A stretch of DNA of 64,000 bases from an uncultured virus (IMG/VR IMGVR_UViG_3300034198_023361) (lineage: Duplodnaviria; Heunggongvirae; Uroviricota; Caudoviricetes), in the IMG/VR virus record IMGVR_UViG_3300034198_023361; one strand, written 5' to 3'. Both the position numbers and the translations under genes were made by a program. Below are positions 7,428-57,710 of the stretch, piece after piece. Numbering within the stretch: the first letter of the stretch is position 1; every line of letters begins with the position of its first letter. The notes beneath the pieces are model-generated. The model saw only the letters and a program-made list of their open reading frames with translations, did no database searches and was not told where the DNA came from.

Positions 7428-7502
7428 ACAAATCGGAACTGCGTAAGACTGCGCTCCTGACAGCGACGTTCAGCCGTCGTAATGGTAAACACTGCGAAGC
7501 AC

Positions 7503-7546
7503 ACCCGCCGGGCCTCTCGACGATGCTCACTCGGCGGGTCTTTTTT
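7503..7546 (+). terminator. Intrinsic terminator
   Basis: ACCCGCCGGG...CTCGGCGGGT stem followed by CTTTTTT. Confidence 0.7.
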
Positions 7547-7556
7547 AGGTTGTGAC

Positions 7557-7703
7557 ATGAGCGGCTGGTTGATTCTTGTTGTGTCTGCTATTTATGCGTA
7601 TGCTGCTGTTGAACAATGCTGGAAAAATAATCCGTGGCTTGGATTAGCTTTCTTTTGCTACGCCATCAGTAACGTTGCCATGTATCAACTCTCGTCAAAA
7701 TAA
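7557..7703 (+). CDS. Small two-TM membrane protein
   Basis: MSGWLILVVSAIYAYAAVEQ...GLAFFCYAISNVAM. Confidence 0.6.
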   Translation: MSGWLILVVSAIYAYAAVEQCWKNNPWLGLAFFCYAISNVAMYQLSSK

Positions 7704-8006: not shown

Positions 8007-10385
<2,379 letters not shown>

Positions 10386-11399
10386 ATGATTACACGCATT
10401 TTACTTCGTCGTGGTGCCGCCGTTGACTGGACGGCCGCAAACCCAACGCTCAGCGACGGCGAGATGGGCGTTGAAGTAGACACACGCAAATTCAAGTTTG
10501 GCGACGGTACAACTGCGTGGAACGATCTGCCGTACGCGGTTGGAATAAACAACAGCACCGGCAGCAACATTCAGGGCGTGACGAGCATTTGGCCGCCATC
10601 CGCGACTCCCGCGGTTGGCGACGTTTATATTCTCGCCGATCCCGTACCAACTGGTTCGCCTGCGGGTAGTCAACCGGCCGATGCCGTAATCTGGACGGGC
10701 GTCGCATGGGAAAACATCGGTCCCGTGGCGGTGATACAAGGTCCGACGGGGCTAATGGGCGCCATGGGTGCAACTGGCGTTACAGGTCCGGTTGCTGCCA
10801 CAGGCCCGTCCGGCCCGACGGGGCCCATAGGCCCAACTGGCGCTACGGGCGTAACTGGCCCAACAGGCGTCAACGGCCCCACGGGGGTTATGGGGCCAAC
10901 AGGGCCGTCTGGACCAGCACCGGCTGTTGCGGCCGGTCCGACAGACGATAGCGTGATTATCGGCGGAGTAACTATAAGAGCTGCGCGCGGGCAAACGGGT
11001 CCAACTGGTGTTACAGGCCCAACCGGAGTCACTGGACCAACTGGGCCGACAGGTATTACCGGCCCCACAGGACCATCTGGGCCTACGGGCACGTTTGCTA
11101 TCGCACAAACTGTTAAAACAATTGGTACGTCATATACATTAATAGCCGCCGACGCGGGTGTTGCTTTAATTTGTACTGCCAACGCACCAATAACAATCAC
11201 AATACCGCTCAATGTTTTAAGCGTCGGCGCATACATCGATATTGTGCAACTAGGCGGCGGTCAACTTTCGTTTAATGCTGCCGCCGGCGTCACACTAAAT
11301 GCAACACCCGGCTTCAGGTCACGTGCTCGCTACAGCGTTGCAAGTCTTTTGCAGTATGCCACAAACCAGTGGATCCTAGCCGGCGACCTTGCAGAGTGA
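10386..11399 (+). CDS. Collagen-like fibre with Mtd-N-like N-terminal domain
   Basis: [43 protein letters not shown]; Gly-X-Y tract; C-terminal WILAGDLA. Confidence 0.85.
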
Positions 11400-23099: not shown

Positions 23100-23443
23100 G
23101 GGGGCGTACTGGTATCGACAGGATAAGGAAGGTTAGGACTGCGTGTCGTGGTTGATCGGTTGGCCACGTTAAAAGCCGATTACGTTTCTAGCTGGCGCTT
23201 TTGCACCGGCCCTCGCTGCCTAGTTTTAGGCCAGCGGGTGAGGCGACCTGAGCCTTATTGCCCAATCAGGTTGACGCCGATAATCGGCTGATCTGGCCCA
23301 GCAAGAAAGGGCAAGATGGTGGTAGCCCACCTGACGCCGATAATCGGCTAACTTTGGCAGGAGTGTAAACAACAACTGCCTACACACGTAGACGTTCTTT
23401 CTGGAGCTATCTCTGGACGCGGGTTCGATTCCCGCCGCCTCCA
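23100..23443 (+). ncRNA. ssrA: tmRNA; predicted tag (A)GAFAPALAA*
   Basis: 5' GGGGGCG..GGTATCGAC, 3' GCGGGTTCGATTCCCGCCGCCTCCA, G3:U70 pair; resume context TAGCT-GGC at 23194, TAG at 23221. Confidence 0.93.
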
Positions 23444-23450
23444 TAAACAA

Positions 23451-26145: not shown

Positions 26146-26445
26146 GTGGAAGATCTGTCATTAGCCGGCGCGAAGGCGTTGCTCAAGCTCGCCGAAACGT
26201 TGGTAAAAACCAGAGATGAAATGCGCAACACAATTGACAAGATGGAGCATCTGCGTAAAGTCGTGGATGGTTGCGCAAACACCCTGATTGACACCCTCAA
26301 GGAAGCGCTACTAATAGTAGTGAGTCAAGATGCCAGCGACGAGGACGGCAGTGAACTGGAACAACCAATGGTGGACGGAAGTGGTACACAAGGAGAAGAC
26401 AGCGTTGAAACCGCAGGTGAACACGAAGAGCGGGACGAGGTATAA
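26146..26445 (+). CDS. Coiled-coil protein with acidic tail
   Basis: RBS AAAGGAG, GTG start. Confidence 0.65.
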   Translation: MEDLSLAGAKALLKLAETLVKTRDEMRNTIDKMEHLRKVVDGCANTLIDTLKEALLIVVSQDASDEDGSELEQPMVDGSGTQGEDSVETAGEHEERDEV

Positions 26446-26617
26446 AACAGACGCGGAGATCGAAGTGAAACAACTTCGCCGCGCGCTGTTAAATATCCGC
26501 AAGGCAATGAGTGCGTTGGTCCAAAAGTTAGACCAGCGCTGCGCCGGAAGTGAGGCCGAAGAAATTGTTACGCGTTATGTGTGCGTGACGCAGCACTACA
26601 TTGACACGTTGACGTAG
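26417..26617 (+). CDS. Possible small protein
   Basis: Helical ORF filling the gap before the promoter; start uncertain. Confidence 0.4.
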   Translation: MNTKSGTRYKTDAEIEVKQLRRALLNIRKAMSALVQKLDQRCAGSEAEEIVTRYVCVTQHYIDTLT

Positions 26618-26636
26618 CCAACACGGCCGCTAGAAT
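26609..26636 (+). promoter_or_regulatory. Sigma70-type promoter for the 26642 RNA
   Basis: TTGACG-N16-TAGAAT; expected start coincides with the 5' arm of the 25-bp stem. Confidence 0.7.
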
Positions 26637-26641
26637 CCATA

Positions 26642-26992
26642 CGTTGGCACAAGAAACGCTCGTGAGAAGCATGTGTATGAACCTATCTCTAGGTGCATGC
26701 AGAGGGCTGGGCGAGCAGCTTTCGTGAAATGTTTTGCAGGAACCGTTAGGGTAGATGGCGGAATAGCGGGCATGCCCCGCCCGGGCCTCGTTGGCTATTC
26801 CAAGTGACTCCACTCGACTACACTACATTATGGCTAGGGGAGCGGGTGGTGCAGGTGAAAGACCTGCCGGACTAGTTTTAAATAACATAGTTTTGCGTCC
26901 GTACAACGCGAGACTGTTCGTGACCTAACAAACGGCTGCAGGGCGTAGGTAGGTAGTGATACCTGTCCTCACGAGCGTTTCTTGTGCTAACG
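26642..26992 (+). ncRNA. ~350-nt multi-branched ncRNA closed by a 25-bp stem
   Basis: 26642-26666 pairs with 26968-26992 (24 Watson-Crick + 1 G:U); at least 8 internal stems; promoter upstream, terminator downstream. Confidence 0.7.
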
Positions 26993-27048
26993 CTTTCTTG
27001 GCGACCGATTGGTCGCTTCGGCACGAGCGCGGATCTCGTTAACTTCGC

Positions 27049-27096
27049 AAAGCCGGTAGGGATGCGCTTCCCTGCCGGCTTTTTTTTAGCTATCAG
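27049..27096 (+). terminator. Intrinsic terminator with TTTAGCTATCAG tail
   Basis: AAAGCCGGTAGGGA/TCCCTGCCGGCTTT then T-run. Confidence 0.85.
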
Positions 27097-27103
27097 AACC
27101 TAG

Positions 27104-27131
27104 CTAAATATCTGCCAAAAACACGGCATAT
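27104..27131 (+). promoter_or_regulatory. Phage promoter motif, copy 2
   Basis: CTAAA-N15-CGGCATAT. Confidence 0.75.
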
Positions 27132-27316
27132 CTATTGAGGACCTATATCTCTTGCCGCGGCAGTGTGTATTGCACTGGCCTTACGCATGAAGCTATAGCA
27201 CTTCCTCGCCGTACCCCTGCCCGGTGATAGGTGGGGCCGTCTAATGGCGAGAGACCATTAGCGTGTACCGCCACGAGACGGCGGTTGTTTTATTTCTCTT
27301 CAAGGAGGACGAGATT

Positions 27317-27547
27317 ATGGCTGGTCTGCGCAACAACCCGGCGGTGAAGGTCAATGTGGACGACTACCGGGACATGCTGTTCGTGTTTGCTGTGGCCACT
27401 GCGCCGCCTGACACGGACATCGAGCACTGCCTGCACTGCGGCCTTGAACTGGGCGTCTGCGAGTGCATCCCGGCCGAAGCAGCGATCCTGAACGACGACT
27501 TCGACGGCTACACGGTGATCGACGCCGACTTTGAGGCTGTCACCTGA
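27317..27547 (+). CDS. Small Cys-rich protein (cassette gene)
   Basis: RBS AAGGAGG; CLHC...CEC. Confidence 0.7.
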   Translation: MAGLRNNPAVKVNVDDYRDMLFVFAVATAPPDTDIEHCLHCGLELGVCECIPAEAAILNDDFDGYTVIDADFEAVT

Positions 27548-27552
27548 ATCTT

Positions 27553-27598
27553 GCGCGGCAGTGGTCTTCGGACCCTGACCGCGCTTTTTTTTAGCTAT
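27553..27598 (+). terminator. Intrinsic terminator with TTTAGCTAT tail
   Basis: GCGCGG..GGTC-TTCG-GACC..CCGCGC then T8. Confidence 0.8.
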
Positions 27599-27693
27599 TT
27601 AACGTAACATATTGTCGCGCACAGACTTACGCCAAGCAGGAAAAACCCGCTTGCCCTAAGTCTTTGTATATCAACATGTTACGTAAAATAGCT
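27593..27693. repeat. ~100-bp imperfect palindrome made of two recombinase-site-like arms
   Basis: AGCTATTTAACGTAACAT...ATGTTACGTAAAATAGCT (17/18), inner AGACTTA/TAAGTCT and CAAGC/GCTTG. Confidence 0.75.
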
Positions 27694-27791
27694 GTAAGAA
27701 ATACATATCAAAACTTCTTTACGTTTCGGGACGTGTTATCAAAATCGTATAATTGCGACACGTTTTAACGTCCTGTCGTCTGGAGGTACAC

Positions 27792-28201: not shown

Positions 28202-28252
28202 AAAGCGCCCGTAGGTATGACCTCCACTTGCGGGCGCTTTTTTTAGCTATCA
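28202..28252 (+). terminator. Intrinsic terminator with TTTAGCTATCA tail
   Basis: AAAGCGCCCGTAGGT/ACTTGCGGGCGCTTT then T-run. Confidence 0.85.
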
Positions 28253-30924: not shown

Positions 30925-30953
30925 CAGGAAAAGCTGCGTCTTTTCTTTAGCTA

Positions 30954-35313: not shown

Positions 35314-35316
35314 TAG

Positions 35317-35344
35317 CTAAATAAACGGCCAAAACCGGGTATAT
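35317..35344 (+). promoter_or_regulatory. Phage promoter motif, copy 6
   Basis: CTAAA-N15-GGGTATAT-CTAGTGA, nearly identical to copy 5. Confidence 0.8.
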
Positions 35345-35840: not shown

Positions 35841-36020
35841 AAAACGCAGACGCAGTCCGGGAGCTAACCACTCCCGGCTGCCAAGCGTTTTTTTAGCTAT
35901 CAGCGCTTTGGTAACTGTTTTTACAGCGCCGTAACTCATTTTCAGTCCAACCCAGCTTTTGTAATAGAATAAAGCGCAGTAGAATGGGCGAGATATTGTT
36001 AGCAAAACAACGGTCGCACT

Positions 36021-53775: not shown

Positions 53776-54810
53776 ATGGCCAAGGGTTTAGACGTCGGAA
53801 CATCGTTTATCGTGCTGGCTCAAGACGCTGCCGCTAACTTCACGACCGATCCGCATCTGGTGGGCAACGTAGAATACAAAGACTTCCGTGATGCGTTTTA
53901 CGTCATCAAACCGACGACGCCCGTGGCCACGAAGATGATCGAGAAGGGCCTGCAGGGCAAAGTTTTCGTGAAAGACGCCGACGGGAGTTTTATCATTCTC
54001 GGCCAAGACGCCATTGAGAAAGCCGTCGAGCGCAATGATTCTGCCAAGCGCCCAATGTACCGCGGCGTTGTCAGCCCCAAGGAAAAAGAGGCCAAGCGCG
54101 TGCTGGCGTTTATTCTCAAAGAGGTGGTCGGCACAGCCGGCACGCCCAACGAGAAGCTGATCTTCTGCGTACCAGCTCAACCCGTCGACCAAGAAGACGA
54201 TGATTTTGACGTTGCGTACCACGAAGACGTAGTAAAGACAGTGCTGTCTGAACAGGGTTATGCTGCCCGCGCGATCAACGAAGCCGAGGCGCTGTGCTAC
54301 TCGGAGCTGGAGCACGACGACTACACCGGCATCGGTCTGTCATGGGGCGCCGGCATGGTGAACGTGTGCGTGATGCTCAATGGCGAGCCAACCGTGCTGT
54401 TCTCGACGACAAAGTCCGGCGACTGGATCGATCGCATGACGGCTGTTGCAACGAACGAGCCGGACTCTGTTGTGCAAGCTGAGAAGGAGCACGGCACGTT
54501 TGTTATCGGCGAGGGCGGCGGAGACAACGCAATTCTTGCTGCTGTGAGCGTGTACTATGAGCGCCTGATCGATTACACGACGAAGCAGCTTGCGGCCGCA
54601 CTGCGCGACCATAAAGCGCTGCCCAAGTTCAAAGAGCCGATTCTGATATCTTTGGCCGGCGGTACGACGCGGGCCAAAGGCTTTGTGGAAATGTTCACAA
54701 AGAAGCTTGAAGAGAATGGCTTTCCGTTGCCGGTGAAAGAAGTTCGTCATGCTAAAGATCCGCTGCACGCTGTTGCGCGCGGATGTCTGATTGCCGCCAA
54801 GATTCTTTGA
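53776..54810 (+). CDS. Actin-like ATPase (MreB/FtsA/MamK superfamily)
   Basis: GLDVGTS, INEAEA, SWGAG, SGDWID, LAGG, AVARG. Confidence 0.88.
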   Translation: MAKGLDVGTSFIVLAQDAAANFTTDPHLVGNVEYKDFRDAFYVIKPTTPVATKMIEKGLQGKVFVKDADGSFIILGQDAIEKAVERNDSAKRPMYRGVVSPKEKEAKRVLAFILKEVVGTAGTPNEKLIFCVPAQPVDQEDDDFDVAYHEDVVKTVLSEQGYAARAINEAEALCYSELEHDDYTGIGLSWGAGMVNVCVMLNGEPTVLFSTTKSGDWIDRMTAVATNEPDSVVQAEKEHGTFVIGEGGGDNAILAAVSVYYERLIDYTTKQLAAALRDHKALPKFKEPILISLAGGTTRAKGFVEMFTKKLEENGFPLPVKEVRHAKDPLHAVARGCLIAAKIL

Positions 54811-56171: not shown

Positions 56172-56178
56172 CCCGCAT

Positions 56179-56250
56179 TGCCTGATAGCACAATGGTAGT
56201 GCACGGCACTGTTAATGCTGGGGTTGTAGGTTCGAGTCCTACTCAGGCAG
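56179..56250 (+). tRNA. tRNA-Asn(GUU)
   Basis: TGCCTGA/TCAGGCA acceptor, loop CTGTTAA. Confidence 0.95.
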
Positions 56251-56264
56251 TTTGAAAGCGCGCT

Positions 56265-57710
56265 ATGGACAGCCTCTCAGCACTTGATCCGCTCTCGTGG
56301 GACCCGCAGTATTATCGCGAGCATCCCGCCTACGCCGCCGGCAACGCGCTCGGCTGGCTCTACCGCAGCGGCAACAAGCAGGCCGCCACAAGTTATCCGC
56401 TTGCTGGTCGGCTCTATCTCGCCAAATCTGGCTGGCTTTTGTTATCTGTACCGAATGCGCTCGTCCGCGGCGTATTTGACGCGTTAACCGAACCCGGCGT
56501 TGAATTACCGACTGCTGGCGTGTTTAACGTTCCAAACGTTAAGGGCGATCTGGTAAATGCGCATATATCAATCATGACGGCCGATGAGGTAGCATCTATC
56601 GGTGCTGACAAGATTAACGAGCGCGGCCACATGTTTGGCTACACGCTGGGCGGGCTGAAAGAAATCGACGTCAAAAACGTCAACGGTGTAAGCAAAGTTT
56701 GGGCAATTCAAGTTTCCGCCCCGGGACTTTCGGCGCTGCGAAAGAGTTACGGACTGTCGGCTCTTCCCAATGACGACCACCCGTTTCACATTACGGTCGC
56801 TGCCAGACGTAAAGGCGTCCTGCTCGACAACGGCAAGTCGAAGGGTTACGAAACCCCTGCCGAAACGACGGAAGGGCAGCGGTTTAGTAACCCCATCAGC
56901 AGGGGAGAGCTTAAAGCCGCCGCAGAACTTTCCCGCTCGGGACAAAACGACCTGTTACCGGGTGGAAAAGCCGATAATGTTCCCGATCGGGATTTTTCTG
57001 TACCAGCGTTAGCCGAAGGAGCTAAACATGAGCACGAACACACAAGAGACGATCAAATCGCCAAAGAAATTGCCAAGGATCATCTGCAAGAAGACCCGCT
57101 GTACTACGAAAAAATCGAAAAAATAGAGAAGGGCGCGGAAGAAGAACCCAAAGTTAAGAAACCGAACACTCTCGACGAGTTGCGTGCGGCGAAAACCCAC
57201 TCCGACCGCCGTGAATACGATCGCAAGCACGAGATCTTGCGGCGATTAATCTCGCAATCGCCGCAGGATTGGAACGTCGATGATCCTAAGCCGAAATACA
57301 AAGGCATTACGCACGGCCCGACCAAGTTTCGGTTTCATGCGCCCGCCGGAGTGATCGGTTCGCAGGTTAAAGCCGCTGACAATAGTGTGTATGCGCAGCA
57401 GTTCCGCAACTTACTCGATCTGCGAACGCCGTTTGTATACGACCACAACAAACCAGTGTTCGCAAACGTGACAGACCATCTGCTCAAGGCTAAACAGCGG
57501 GGTGATTTCATTCTGGCGTCGCGACAGAAGTCGCATTTGTATCGCTCGATGCTCGATCCGCAGTATAGATATCAAATGGCGCAAGCCGCCGCGACCGGAA
57601 CACTGCCGCAAATGAACATGTTCGATAAGGCAACACAGCTATACGGCAATGACATCTTTGACACCATTCAAAACTGGGGGAAAAACAATGGAAACGCCGC
57701 TGCTCGATAA
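56265..57710 (+). CDS. Polyprotein: 2H phosphoesterase, DUF5661-like and further modules
   Basis: HISI (56562) and HITV (56787); LLPGGKAD...EHEHT.D..IAKEIAKDHL.EDP.YY. Confidence 0.8.
   Translation: MDSLSALDPLSWDPQYYREHPAYAAGNALGWLYRSGNKQAATSYPLAGRLYLAKSGWLLLSVPNALVRGVFDALTEPGVELPTAGVFNVPNVKGDLVNAHISIMTADEVASIGADKINERGHMFGYTLGGLKEIDVKNVNGVSKVWAIQVSAPGLSALRKSYGLSALPNDDHPFHITVAARRKGVLLDNGKSKGYETPAETTEGQRFSNPISRGELKAAAELSRSGQNDLLPGGKADNVPDRDFSVPALAEGAKHEHEHTRDDQIAKEIAKDHLQEDPLYYEKIEKIEKGAEEEPKVKKPNTLDELRAAKTHSDRREYDRKHEILRRLISQSPQDWNVDDPKPKYKGITHGPTKFRFHAPAGVIGSQVKAADNSVYAQQFRNLLDLRTPFVYDHNKPVFANVTDHLLKAKQRGDFILASRQKSHLYRSMLDPQYRYQMAQAAATGTLPQMNMFDKATQLYGNDIFDTIQNWGKNNGNAAAR

What the first reader, a model, noticed from the sequence alone, without database searches (positions are those of the whole stretch)
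26609..27096. Stand-alone ~350-nt ncRNA with its own promoter, 25-bp closing stem and terminator
Seen: TTGACG-N16-TAGAAT places the start at about 26642, exactly the 5' arm of CGTTGGCACAAGAAACGCTCGTGAG, which pairs with 26968-26992. The single mismatch is G:U-compatible on the + strand. Internal stems: GCATGT/GCATGC with ACCTA/TAGGT, GAGGGCTG/CAGCTTTC, GTTTTGCAG/CTGCAGGGC enclosing CCGTT/AACGG, GGAATAGC/GCTATTCC, CACTCG/CGGGTG, GCAGGT-GAAAG-ACCTGC and TAGTTTTGCGT/ACGCGAGACTG. There are many G:U pairs and no credible ORF. Two more hairpins and a strong terminator follow. I do not recognise the class. Inference: a large ornate phage RNA (ribozyme, scaffold or protein sponge); the long duplex could be an RNase III processing stem.
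Basis: partly seen in the sequence, partly recalled or inferred. Interest (0 to 1): 0.8.

Follow-up and report, generated by a model that had tools for sequence, protein, structure and literature searches.

The report
New folded RNA gene in lake phages
A roughly 450-base gene in an uncultured 200-kb lake phage makes a heavily folded RNA instead of a protein; it fits no catalogued RNA family, related phages keep it almost unchanged, and its job is still unknown.

Summary
Window 26609-27087 is a self-contained RNA gene. It has a sigma-70-like promoter and a 25-bp helix (P1) that starts at the predicted +1. P1 closes a 351-nt core of 15 helices; two small hairpins and a strong terminator follow. 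I found 10 distinct versions in 12 records, all of them ~200-kb freshwater phages or fragments. Across these, 99.2% of 1190 pair cells stay paired and 26 of 119 pairs show compensatory changes, against 11.0+-2.4 in shuffles and 2-6 with slid partners. G:U pairs mark the + strand as the RNA strand (99.2% against 87.5% paired). There is no conserved ORF. The gene is single-copy in 5 of 5 near-complete genomes. Those five genomes gave no match to reverse transcriptase, resolvase/invertase or integrase profiles. Homology with a mosaic relative covers 26643-27086, from the predicted start into the terminator's T-run. Rfam 15 gives no match, even at E<=10. Short contigs from RNA libraries of three studies lie inside the RNA, which is weak evidence of expression. 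The function is unknown. My best guess is a stable trans-acting RNA, transcribed from a host-type promoter, that binds a protein. An RNA-only assembly or a ribozyme remains possible. Earlier notes of this scan covered the same stretch in related phages, but they concerned promoters and cassette boundaries, not this RNA.

The parts
26609..26636 (+). Sigma-70-like promoter: -35 TTGACG (26609-26614), 16-nt spacer, -10 TAGAAT (26631-26636). The -35 overlaps the stop codon of the upstream small ORF.
   Evidence: The hexamers and the 16-nt spacing are conserved while the spacer varies. L028 carries a different promoter-like sequence with the same geometry.
26642..26666 (+). P1 5' arm. It begins at the predicted transcription start (about 26641-26643).
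   Evidence: 9 of 25 P1 pairs show compensatory changes, and the outer 10 bp are almost invariant, including G:U at pair 5. The homology block with G010 starts at 26643.
26669..26700 (+). Hairpin H2/H3 (GCAUGU...GCAUGC enclosing ACCUA-UCUC-UAGGU) with an invariant asymmetric internal loop.
   Evidence: One compensatory pair in H2; H3 is invariant.
26702..26723 (+). Hairpin H4 (GAGGGCUG/CAGCUUUC), variable in stem and loop.
   Evidence: 4 of 8 pairs with changes on both sides. Loop indels of 1-4 nt.
26724..26759 (+). Almost invariant core strand (34 of 36 positions invariant in 10 sequences): junction GUGAA, 5' strands of long-range helices H5 (26729-26739) and H6 (26745-26750), junction GUAGAUGGC.
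   Evidence: These helices do not vary, so they give no covariation evidence for or against.
26760..26801 (+). Hairpin H7/H8 (GGAAUAGC...GCUAUUCC with a GC-rich tip).
   Evidence: 3 of 10 H7 pairs compensatory; H8 is invariant.
26810..26849 (+). Irregular hairpin H9/H10 (CCACUCG.../...CGGGUGG).
   Evidence: 1 compensatory pair and 2 one-sided changes. The tip has small indels.
26851..26867 (+). Hairpin H11, GCAGGU-GAAAG-ACCUGC.
26868..26920 (+). Stem H12 carrying hairpins H13 and H14. H14 (26889-26915) has a hypervariable stem and an invariant 7-nt loop, CCGUACA.
   Evidence: H14 has 6 of 10 pairs with changes on both sides; H12 and H13 have one each.
26921..26947 (+). Invariant core strand: 3' strands of H6 (26924-26929) and H5 (26936-26946) with junction AAACGG.
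26948..26967 (+). Hairpin H15 with an invariant GUGA (GNRA-type) tetraloop, next to P1.
   Evidence: Only one-sided G-C/G-U and A-U/G-U changes.
26968..26992 (+). P1 3' arm.
26993..27048 (+). 3' tail with hairpins at 27000-27017 and 27023-27039. The sequence is highly conserved.
27049..27087 (+). Intrinsic terminator: 14-pair stem followed by T8.
   Evidence: One compensatory pair (A-U/GC, 5 sequences each) in A8. The homology block with G010 ends at 27086. L028 and L042 diverge right after the T-run.
27085..27108 (.). Inverted pair of the TAGCTAAA box directly after the terminator. This is the boundary of the cassette, not part of the RNA.
   Evidence: 7 copies in the window against 1.26+-1.11 expected, with 0 of 100 shuffles reaching 7. 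The same box is described in earlier notes e1-5403781 and e1-5856833.

Best explanation
The stretch is a self-contained gene for a non-coding RNA of a family that is not in Rfam.

Anatomy. A host-type (sigma-70-like) promoter at 26609-26636 starts transcription at about 26641-26643. That is the first base of a 25-bp helix (P1), which closes a 351-nt core of 15 helices arranged around two multi-helix junctions. Two small hairpins and an intrinsic terminator follow, ending at 27087. The primary transcript is about 445 nt.

Shown here: the fold, compensatory changes in 8 helices, the + strand as the RNA strand, no conserved reading frame, one copy per genome, and homology that begins at the predicted start and ends in the terminator's T-run even where the flanks have been swapped.

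Inferred: it acts in trans as a stable folded RNA.
- The 5' end is buried in P1 from +1 and the 3' end in the terminator hairpin. By established knowledge of RNase E/RppH and 3' exonucleases, this protects an RNA from 5'-end-dependent and 3'-exonucleolytic decay.
- The strictly invariant junction strands and loops (26724-26759, 26921-26967, hairpin 26669-26700) would form the working surface. The variable helices (inner P1, H4, H7, H14) would serve only as struts.

My rough odds for the mode of action:
- binds and sequesters or scaffolds a host or phage protein early in infection: ~40%
- RNA-only multimer of the ROOL/GOLLD type: ~15%
- ribozyme: ~10%
- base-pairing regulator: ~10%
- something else: the rest

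P1 is long enough to be a substrate of host RNase III. That enzyme could trim the RNA and remove the 3' tail; this is inferred, not tested.
For: Fold: z -7.29 for the 351-nt core and -7.67 for the whole 449 nt.

Covariation on 10 distinct sequences:
- 119 pairs; 99.2% of 1190 cells paired, against 94.3+-0.4 in shuffles (0 of 500 reach it).
- 26 pairs with changes on both sides, against 11.0+-2.4 in shuffles (0 of 500 reach it).
- With partners slid by 1-3 columns, only 31.9-44.3% of cells pair and 2-6 pairs show such changes.

Strand: 145 G:U cells; 99.2% paired on + against 87.5% on -.

Non-coding: the longest ORFs differ between homologues, there are indels of 1, 2 and 4 nt, and variable columns split 33/32/31 by codon phase.

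Conservation: the RNA is 82.9-98.6% identical to the window in 6 relatives, where the upstream 600 nt are 66-89% and the downstream 600 nt 34-92%.

Gene boundaries: blastn against G010 gives a discrete block at window 26643-27086. L028 has another sigma-70-like promoter with the same 16-nt spacing. L028 and L042 have other DNA right after the T-run.

Copy number: one match in each of 5 of 5 genomes that are 97-100% complete.

No catalogued family: Rfam 15 at gathering score, and at E<=10 on the window and on 5 relatives.

Expression (weak): in 3 of the 4 RNA-library runs laid, from 3 studies, contigs of 199-223 nt lie wholly inside 26680-26936, with nothing laid on the flanks.
Against: - All 10 sequences come from one narrow phage clade and are at least 83% identical to the window. 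Relatedness inflates covariation counts; a free scan of column pairs finds many spurious 'covarying' pairs.
- Seven of the 15 helices (H3, H5, H6, H8, H10, H11, H15) show no change on both sides; five of them (H3, H6, H8, H10, and H5 apart from one-sided changes) never vary. Their pairing rests on energy alone.
- The interior without P1 folds only modestly better than shuffles (z -1.97).
- The promoter match alone is not above chance.
- The RNA-library evidence comes from assembled contigs without strand information. DNA carry-over cannot be excluded. The RNA is also the best-conserved part of the stretch, so hits are biased towards it.
- One 840-nt contig of a relative (run X20) runs from the upstream ORF into the RNA. 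That is either read-through or DNA.
- Nothing tested here bears on function. No partner protein was found: the five relatives' genomes gave no match to TROVE/Ro, RtcB or RNase III profiles.
Confidence: 0.78

Rival explanations
1. It is a cis-acting processing or stability element, not a trans-acting gene. On this reading the structure is an RNase III site and insulator inside a long early transcript. It would separate or stabilise the neighbouring messages, as the T7 early processing signals do.
For: A 25-bp duplex is RNase III-sized. An 840-nt RNA-library contig of a relative spans the upstream ORF and the RNA. Earlier notes on other lake phages read stem-closed elements this way (e1-6031303, e1-6031017).
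Against: The block has its own promoter geometry and its own terminator. It keeps both when the flanks are exchanged. About 300 nt of invariant, branched interior is far more than a cleavage site needs. The terminator would stop read-through into the next gene, which has its own box and promoter region.
Confidence: 0.1
2. It is a DNA-level element. The 25-bp inverted repeats would be the ends of an invertible segment (inverton) or of a miniature transposable element.
For: Inverted repeats of 25 bp flanking about 300 bp is the classic inverton or MITE geometry.
Against: - The orientation is the same in all 10 distinct versions.
- The five near-complete relatives gave no match to resolvase/invertase or tyrosine recombinase profiles.
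- There is a single copy in 5 of 5 genomes, and the arm word is unique in the window.
- Interior helices covary, and 145 G:U cells make sense only as + strand RNA.
- The repeat itself carries a conserved G:T mismatch and further A-U to G-U changes.
Confidence: 0.03
3. It is a highly divergent member of a known RNA class that Rfam's models miss. Candidates are RNase P RNA, 6S RNA, a Y RNA, retron msr-msd, a group I intron, or manA/GOLLD/ROOL.
For: - The phage carries tRNAs and a tmRNA 3-7 kb upstream, so an RNA-processing role would fit.
- Long 5'/3' stems occur in Y RNAs, retron RNAs and RNase P (recalled).
- ROOL and GOLLD are also phage RNAs near tRNA islands (passages read).
Against: - No hit to any of 4227 models, even at E<=10 with permissive filters. 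The best hits are 12-24 bits, far below gathering scores, and fall on different families in different relatives.
- The five relatives gave no reverse transcriptase match.
- They gave no TROVE/Ro match.
- The fold is branched, not a 6S-type rod with a central bubble.
- It is not inserted in a gene, as an intron would be.
Confidence: 0.05
4. It is the primer or pre-primer transcript of a replication origin, comparable to ColE1 RNA II or the T4 origin transcripts.
For: A promoter followed by a structured non-coding transcript is the layout of such origins (recalled).
Against: There is no turn in GC skew near 26.6 kb. A strong terminator ends the transcript. I saw no AT-rich unwinding element. Compensatory conservation of 8 helices is more than a primer needs.
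Confidence: 0.02
5. It encodes one or more small proteins.
For: The window has ORFs of 44 and 45 aa on the + strand and an 81-aa ORF on the - strand (26568-26813) overlapping the stretch.
Against: - The longest ORFs differ from homologue to homologue.
- Indels of 1 and 4 nt at alignment columns 35 and 70-73 fall inside the 81-aa frame.
- Substitutions show no codon periodicity (33/32/31).
- The substitutions are compensatory in helices.
Confidence: 0.02

Closest known systems
ROOL and GOLLD RNAs (Rfam families; Kretsch et al., bioRxiv 10.1101/2024.12.08.627333, passages read)
   Same: All are large, ornate, stand-alone non-coding RNAs encoded by phages and prophages, often near tRNA islands, with unknown function. 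This RNA lies about 3 kb downstream of a tRNA/tmRNA island. GOLLD was first seen in lake metagenomes; this RNA occurs in freshwater metagenomes.
   Different: There is no sequence or structure match. At 351 nt for the core and about 445 nt for the transcript, it is smaller than ROOL (659 nt for env-120) or GOLLD (over 800 nt). It is closed by a 25-bp helix. It is confined to one phage clade, whereas ROOL and GOLLD are widespread. Whether it forms multimers is untested.
manA RNA motif (RF01745) and the 'double-core manA' RNA noted earlier in this scan (e1-6108937)
   Same: A folded RNA gene in giant aquatic phages, with its own promoter and terminator, closed by a long stem.
   Different: The manA model does not match this RNA or 5 relatives, even at E<=10. 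It is therefore not a manA derivative.
Y RNAs / YrlA with Ro60 (Rsr) (recalled, not read here)
   Same: The 5' and 3' ends pair into a long helix that closes a structured module. Y RNAs work as protein-binding scaffold RNAs, which is also my favoured mode of action here.
   Different: Y RNAs are about 100-130 nt. No Rfam Y RNA or YrlA hit. The five relatives' genomes gave no TROVE/Ro match. The host is unknown.
phi29 pRNA (recalled, not read here)
   Same: A phage-encoded, independently transcribed RNA in which a long 5'/3' helix carries a branched domain.
   Different: pRNA is 120-174 nt, is restricted to phi29-like phages, and oligomerises through loop-loop pairs. No Rfam family, pRNA's included if Rfam holds one, reached E<=10. 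No loop-loop covariation could be detected here.
RNase III processing stems of phage early transcripts (T7 R1.1 etc., recalled) and PeSL-type cassette boundaries of T4-like phages (cited in earlier notes e1-5403781 and e1-5856833; the papers were not read)
   Same: A duplex of at least 20 bp in a transcript with a host-type promoter. The RNA sits in an array of promoter-gene-terminator cassettes bounded by a repeated box (TAGCTAAA) and is exchanged as a unit.
   Different: Here the cargo of the cassette is a 351-nt conserved branched RNA rather than a protein gene, and the stem encloses that cargo.

Membership tests
Any Rfam 15 family (4227 models) | Covariance-model score at or above the family's gathering score | tested here: not met
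   no match in 26609-27096 at gathering score; at E<=10 only scattered hits of 12-24 bits, on the terminator hairpin or on differing families (mir-3926, L4-Archaeoglobi, group-II-D1D4-4, ATPC and others), none consistent between relatives.
Retron msr-msd RNA | Inverted repeats (a1/a2) pairing the two ends of the RNA | tested here: met
   The 25-bp P1. The resemblance is superficial only.
Retron msr-msd RNA | A cognate reverse transcriptase gene (normally adjacent) | tested here: not met
   PF00078 gave a match in 0 of 5 near-complete relatives, while the controls rang. No RT domain among the 66 window ORFs scanned with Pfam, out of 82 candidate ORFs.
Inverton (invertible DNA segment) | Inverted repeats flanking a short segment | tested here: met
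Inverton (invertible DNA segment) | A site-specific recombinase, and both orientations observed | tested here: not met
   Resolvase matched in 0 of 5 and Phage_integrase in 0 of 5 relatives. The orientation is the same in 10 of 10 distinct versions. Read-level orientation in DNA runs was not examined.
MITE / dispersed repeat | Multiple dispersed copies with terminal inverted repeats and target-site duplications | tested here: not met
   One match per genome in 5 of 5. One match in the window. The arm word is unique in the window, with 19 one-mismatch matches against 21.3 expected.
6S RNA | A rod-like hairpin with a large central bubble; match to RF00013 or its relatives | tested here: not met
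   The consensus fold is a 15-helix branched structure. No 6S hit at E<=10.
RNase P RNA | Conserved regions CR-I to CR-V with the P4 helix; match to the Rfam RNase P models | tested here: not met
   No RNase P model reaches E<=10. A by-eye likeness of two short words to CR-I and CR-V is recalled only and was not pursued. Catalysis cannot be tested here.
RNase III substrate | A regular duplex of about two helical turns (at least 20 bp) | tested here: met
   P1 has 25 pairs, all standard or G:U.
RNase III substrate | Actual staggered cleavage in the duplex | not testable with these tools
   This needs an in vitro cleavage assay or RNA-end mapping. The RNA-library contigs give no ends.
ROOL/GOLLD-type self-assembling phage RNA | Homology to the ROOL or GOLLD models | tested here: not met
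ROOL/GOLLD-type self-assembling phage RNA | Protein-free homo-oligomer formation | not testable with these tools
   This needs native gels, DLS or cryo-EM of the transcript.
Y RNA / Ro RNP | A Ro60 (TROVE) partner | tested here: not met
   PF05731 matched in 0 of 5 phage genomes. The host genome is unknown, so a host partner is not excluded.

The most novel reading that the evidence does not exclude
This is a new class of large phage RNA that works without a dedicated protein. It could be a self-assembling RNA particle (as ROOL and GOLLD turned out to be) or a new ribozyme, made from a host-type promoter by a lytic 200-kb phage that also brings its own tRNAs and tmRNA. The strictly invariant junction strands would then be inter-subunit contacts or an active site, and the 25-bp P1 a rigid spoke.
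Probability: 0.2. Interest if true: 0.85.

Novelty: new variant of a known kind. Interest (0 to 1): 0.6.

Why it matters
Only a handful of bacterial or phage non-coding RNAs above 300 nt with conserved ornate folds are known. Each one studied so far has turned out to do something unexpected: OLE, HEARO/omega RNA, and the ROOL and GOLLD nanocages. This RNA is a clean new candidate.

- It has defined ends, a compact 351-nt core and a well-supported secondary structure.
- It is short enough for direct in vitro transcription, chemical probing and cryo-EM.
- It sits in the swappable accessory-gene array of a lytic lake phage under a host-type promoter. That placement points to a role in host take-over or counter-defence.

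Its weakness is its narrow range: one clade of uncultured phages with no known host. Genetics is out of reach for now.

Tried and rejected
- blastn ('distant') of 26560-27120 against 50,697 phage records: no match.
- No whole genome is held for the window.
I built a 243-position core model instead.
- The core model found nothing in 13 syntenic loci of more distant phages that share a neighbouring protein at 37-47% identity. It also found nothing in 5 of their whole records, one of which is 98% complete. nhmmer agreed. The RNA seems confined to one clade.
- Pattern scans:
  - Two 18-mers and one degenerate 33-mer each returned the same 9 IMG/VR contigs.
  - One pattern was mis-specified by one base and returned 0.
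  - The metagenome scan gave 4 loci, 1 of them new.
  - The genome scan gave one 5-kb contig of a MAG, probably binned phage DNA.
- A search for pseudoknots by free covariation was swamped by phylogenetic signal. By-eye candidates were dropped as no better than chance or not conserved: loop CCGUACA against the internal loop UGUAUG, an 11-nt receptor, a K-turn, a T-loop.
- Mimicry of the 16S rRNA 3' domain: local alignment to E. coli rrsH was no better than shuffles (94 of 200 as good; for the sub-region, 187 of 1000). The MAG holding L045 gave no 16S.
- GC skew shows no turn at the locus.
- The five relatives gave no match to RNase III, RtcB or Ro profiles.
- Neighbouring ORFs have no informative Pfam or PHROG family.
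- Flank cover in RNA runs: no contig was laid on 26300-26680 or 26970-27400 in X15-X17. This is not evidence of silence, since the flanks diverge between strains and the depth is low.
- A 337-nt RNA-library contig (X15, depth 26.1) fits only 26835-26867 but shares a further word with the window. It may be a distant relative. Its 30-nt loose end gave 0 hits and a gapped family pattern gave only 8 known contigs.
- Two literature searches found no description of this RNA (listings and abstracts only, plus passages of one preprint).
Full report
**What is there.** The window is part of a large phage. Most genes lie on the + strand. It has tail-fibre, baseplate and helicase genes, six tRNAs and a tmRNA. 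Its relatives are ~200-kb contigs from freshwater metagenomes. No whole genome is held for the window, and no cultured phage is close.

At 26609-26636 lies TTGACG-N16-TAGAAT. Five bases later a 25-nt arm (26642-26666) begins. It pairs with 26968-26992, 301 nt away, with one G:T position. Two hairpins (27000-27017, 27023-27039) follow, then a 14-pair terminator with eight T (27049-27087). The + strand RNA folds to -158.5 kcal/mol (z -7.29) for the 351-nt core and -204.4 kcal/mol (z -7.67) for the whole transcript. The - strand is weaker (z -5.21). Much of this signal comes from P1; the interior alone has z -1.97. Single-sequence folding is therefore not enough, and comparative evidence is needed.

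**Relatives.** Exact and degenerate word scans and a search through a neighbouring protein found the element in 9 IMG/VR contigs. One further metagenome contig (L042) and a 5-kb contig binned into a MAG (L045) also carry it. With the window this makes 12 records and 10 distinct RNA sequences. L045 reads like L001 by eye.

- Six of the 19 loci that share the neighbouring protein carry the RNA. These are the loci at 73% protein identity or more.
- The 13 loci at 47% or less do not. nhmmer and the covariance model both found nothing within 6 kb of the shared protein.
- Five of those distant phages' whole records also lack it.
- Each of five 97-100% complete genomes has exactly one copy.

**Is it a structured RNA?** On the 10 sequences, RNAalifold gives 119 pairs in 15 helices. 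Counting that structure:

- 99.2% of 1190 cells form standard pairs. Shuffles give 94.3+-0.4, and 0 of 500 reach the observed value.
- 26 pairs have changes on both sides. Shuffles give 11.0+-2.4, and 0 of 500 reach it.
- Sliding the partners by 1-3 columns leaves 31.9-44.3% of cells paired and 2-6 such pairs.

Compensatory changes fall in P1 (9 pairs), H4 (4), H7 (3) and H14 (6), with one each in H2, H9, H12 and H13. H14 has at least five stem versions under an invariant loop. In L009 and L025 the inner 13 bp of P1 are rewritten with complementarity kept.

The structure has 145 G:U cells. Read on the - strand, only 87.5% of cells would pair. The RNA is therefore the + strand. A purely DNA-level palindrome does not explain the pattern.

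Caveats: all sequences are close relatives, and a free scan finds many spurious covarying column pairs. H3, H5, H6, H8, H10, H11 and H15 show no change on both sides (H11 and H15 only one-sided or breaking changes), so they are supported by energy only.

**Is it coding?** No. The longest ORFs differ between homologues. Indels of 1, 2 and 4 nt occur. Variable columns split 33/32/31 by phase. The 81-aa ORF on the - strand is broken by the 1- and 4-nt indels at alignment columns 35 and 70-73.

**Is it a stand-alone gene?**
- The -35 and -10 hexamers and the 16-nt spacing are kept while the spacer changes.
- In L028/G010 the upstream DNA is unrelated, yet it reads TTGACC-N16-TAAACT 8 nt before P1. 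The first P1 pair changes there from C-G to U-A.
- blastn against G010 gives one discrete block, window 26643-27086, at 90% identity. The sequence before it has been replaced, and about 800 nt are inserted after it.
- L042 and L028 diverge right after the T-run.
- The RNA is more conserved than its flanks: 83-99% against 66-89% upstream and 34-92% downstream.

The conserved unit thus runs from the predicted start into the terminator's T-run. Directly behind it lies an inverted pair of the TAGCTAAA box (7 copies in the window against 1.26 expected). Earlier notes of this scan describe that box as the boundary of swappable promoter-gene-terminator cassettes in these phages. Here the cargo of a cassette is an RNA.

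**Expression.** Six metatranscriptome runs hold 11-16% of the sampled words, and 14 DNA runs from freshwater hold about a third. I laid 4 of the 6 RNA runs.

- In three of them (three studies), single contigs of 199, 223 and 222 nt lie wholly within 26680-26936. They differ from the window at 1-2 letters (plus 2-3 gaps in two of them), and nothing was laid on the flanks.
- The fourth gave an 840-nt contig of a relative that runs from the upstream ORF to 26948.
- Contigs carry no strand or end information and may derive from DNA. I count this as weak support only.
- A 337-nt contig at the highest depth (26.1) fits only 33 nt of H9-H11. It may be a far relative, but I could not recover it.

**What it is not.**
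- No Rfam 15 family matches at gathering score. At E<=10 nothing consistent appears on the window or on five relatives.
- Retron or DGR: the five near-complete relatives gave no reverse transcriptase match.
- Inverton: they gave no resolvase or integrase match, and the orientation is the same in all versions.
- MITE: it is single-copy.
- Y RNA: they gave no Ro match. RtcB and RNase III profiles also found nothing.
- 16S mimicry: no better than shuffles.
- Origin transcript: no skew turn.
- Two literature searches found nothing like it (listings and abstracts).

**How it probably works (inferred).** The gene makes a stable RNA from a host-type promoter, so it can be transcribed by host polymerase before any phage polymerase is made. 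Its 5' end is paired from +1 and its 3' end sits in a terminator hairpin. By established knowledge of bacterial RNA decay, both features lengthen RNA life.

The pattern of conservation suggests a fixed three-dimensional core held out by interchangeable struts. The junction strands, H2/H3, H5/H6, H8, H11 and the GNRA-capped H15 are invariant. Inner P1, H4, H7 and H14 vary freely but stay paired.

I put about 40% on a protein-binding role (decoy or scaffold). I put about 15% on an RNA-only multimer, as shown for ROOL and GOLLD, which are also phage RNAs near tRNA islands. I put about 10% on catalysis, about 10% on base-pairing regulation, and the rest on other roles. P1 is long enough for host RNase III; whether it is cut is untested.

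**Verdict.** The finding is real. It is well supported as a new structured RNA family of one clade of lake phages. Its function is open.

Noticed in passing
window 23100-23446 (+): The phage encodes a full-length tmRNA (RF00023, 121.8 bits, model 1-374). ARAGORN does not call it in the window. It does call the homologous genes in two relatives: tag GTFNSVPALAA* in G009, and an odd 25-residue tag in G010, whose tmRNA is 97.7% identical to the window's.
   Followed up: partly
window 7504-7539 (+): Match to the abiF RNA motif (RF03085, 42.5 bits against a gathering score of 37, E 0.0002), at the start of a 73-aa ORF (7482-7700) in a structural-gene region. Such an RNA in a phage could be a mimic of a host abortive-infection RNA.
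   Followed up: no
window 27085-27108, and 27590-27597, 28242-28249, 30946-30953, 35314-35321, 35892-35899: The word TAGCTAAA occurs 7 times against 1.26 expected. It sits in or beside terminators and ahead of the next gene. This is the same cassette-boundary box as in earlier notes on related phages.
   Followed up: partly
window 27585-27701: An imperfect inverted repeat with 56-nt arms (75% complementary, 5 nt between the arms). It starts with T8-AGCTA, just downstream of the 76-aa ORF 27317-27547. It could be another long hairpin RNA or a bidirectional terminator.
   Followed up: no
window 27190-27316: A structured leader ahead of ORF 27317-27547. It includes a terminator-like hairpin (27267-27285, followed by TGTTTTATTT) only about 20 nt before the AAGGAGGA ribosome-binding site. 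This is a possible attenuator.
   Followed up: no
window 8037-11396: Collagen-repeat tail-fibre genes. The second has an Mtd_N domain (major tropism determinant N-terminus, E 3e-11). The five relatives gave no reverse transcriptase match, so this is not a working diversity-generating retroelement.
   Followed up: partly
window 53776-54807 (+): A 344-aa protein matching Pfam Volactin over its full length (E 2.3e-62). This is an actin-family protein in a phage.
   Followed up: no
window 56178-57707: A tRNA-Asn is directly followed by a 481-aa protein with a 2H phosphoesterase (2H-SAK) domain and DUF5661, a possible RNA-repair or RNA-end-processing enzyme.
   Followed up: no
run X15, contig record 2, fitting window 26835-26867: A 337-nt contig from an RNA library, at the highest depth laid (26.1), shares only 33 nt (3 differences) plus the word CTCGACTA with this RNA. 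It may be a much more divergent family member that is expressed.
   Followed up: partly
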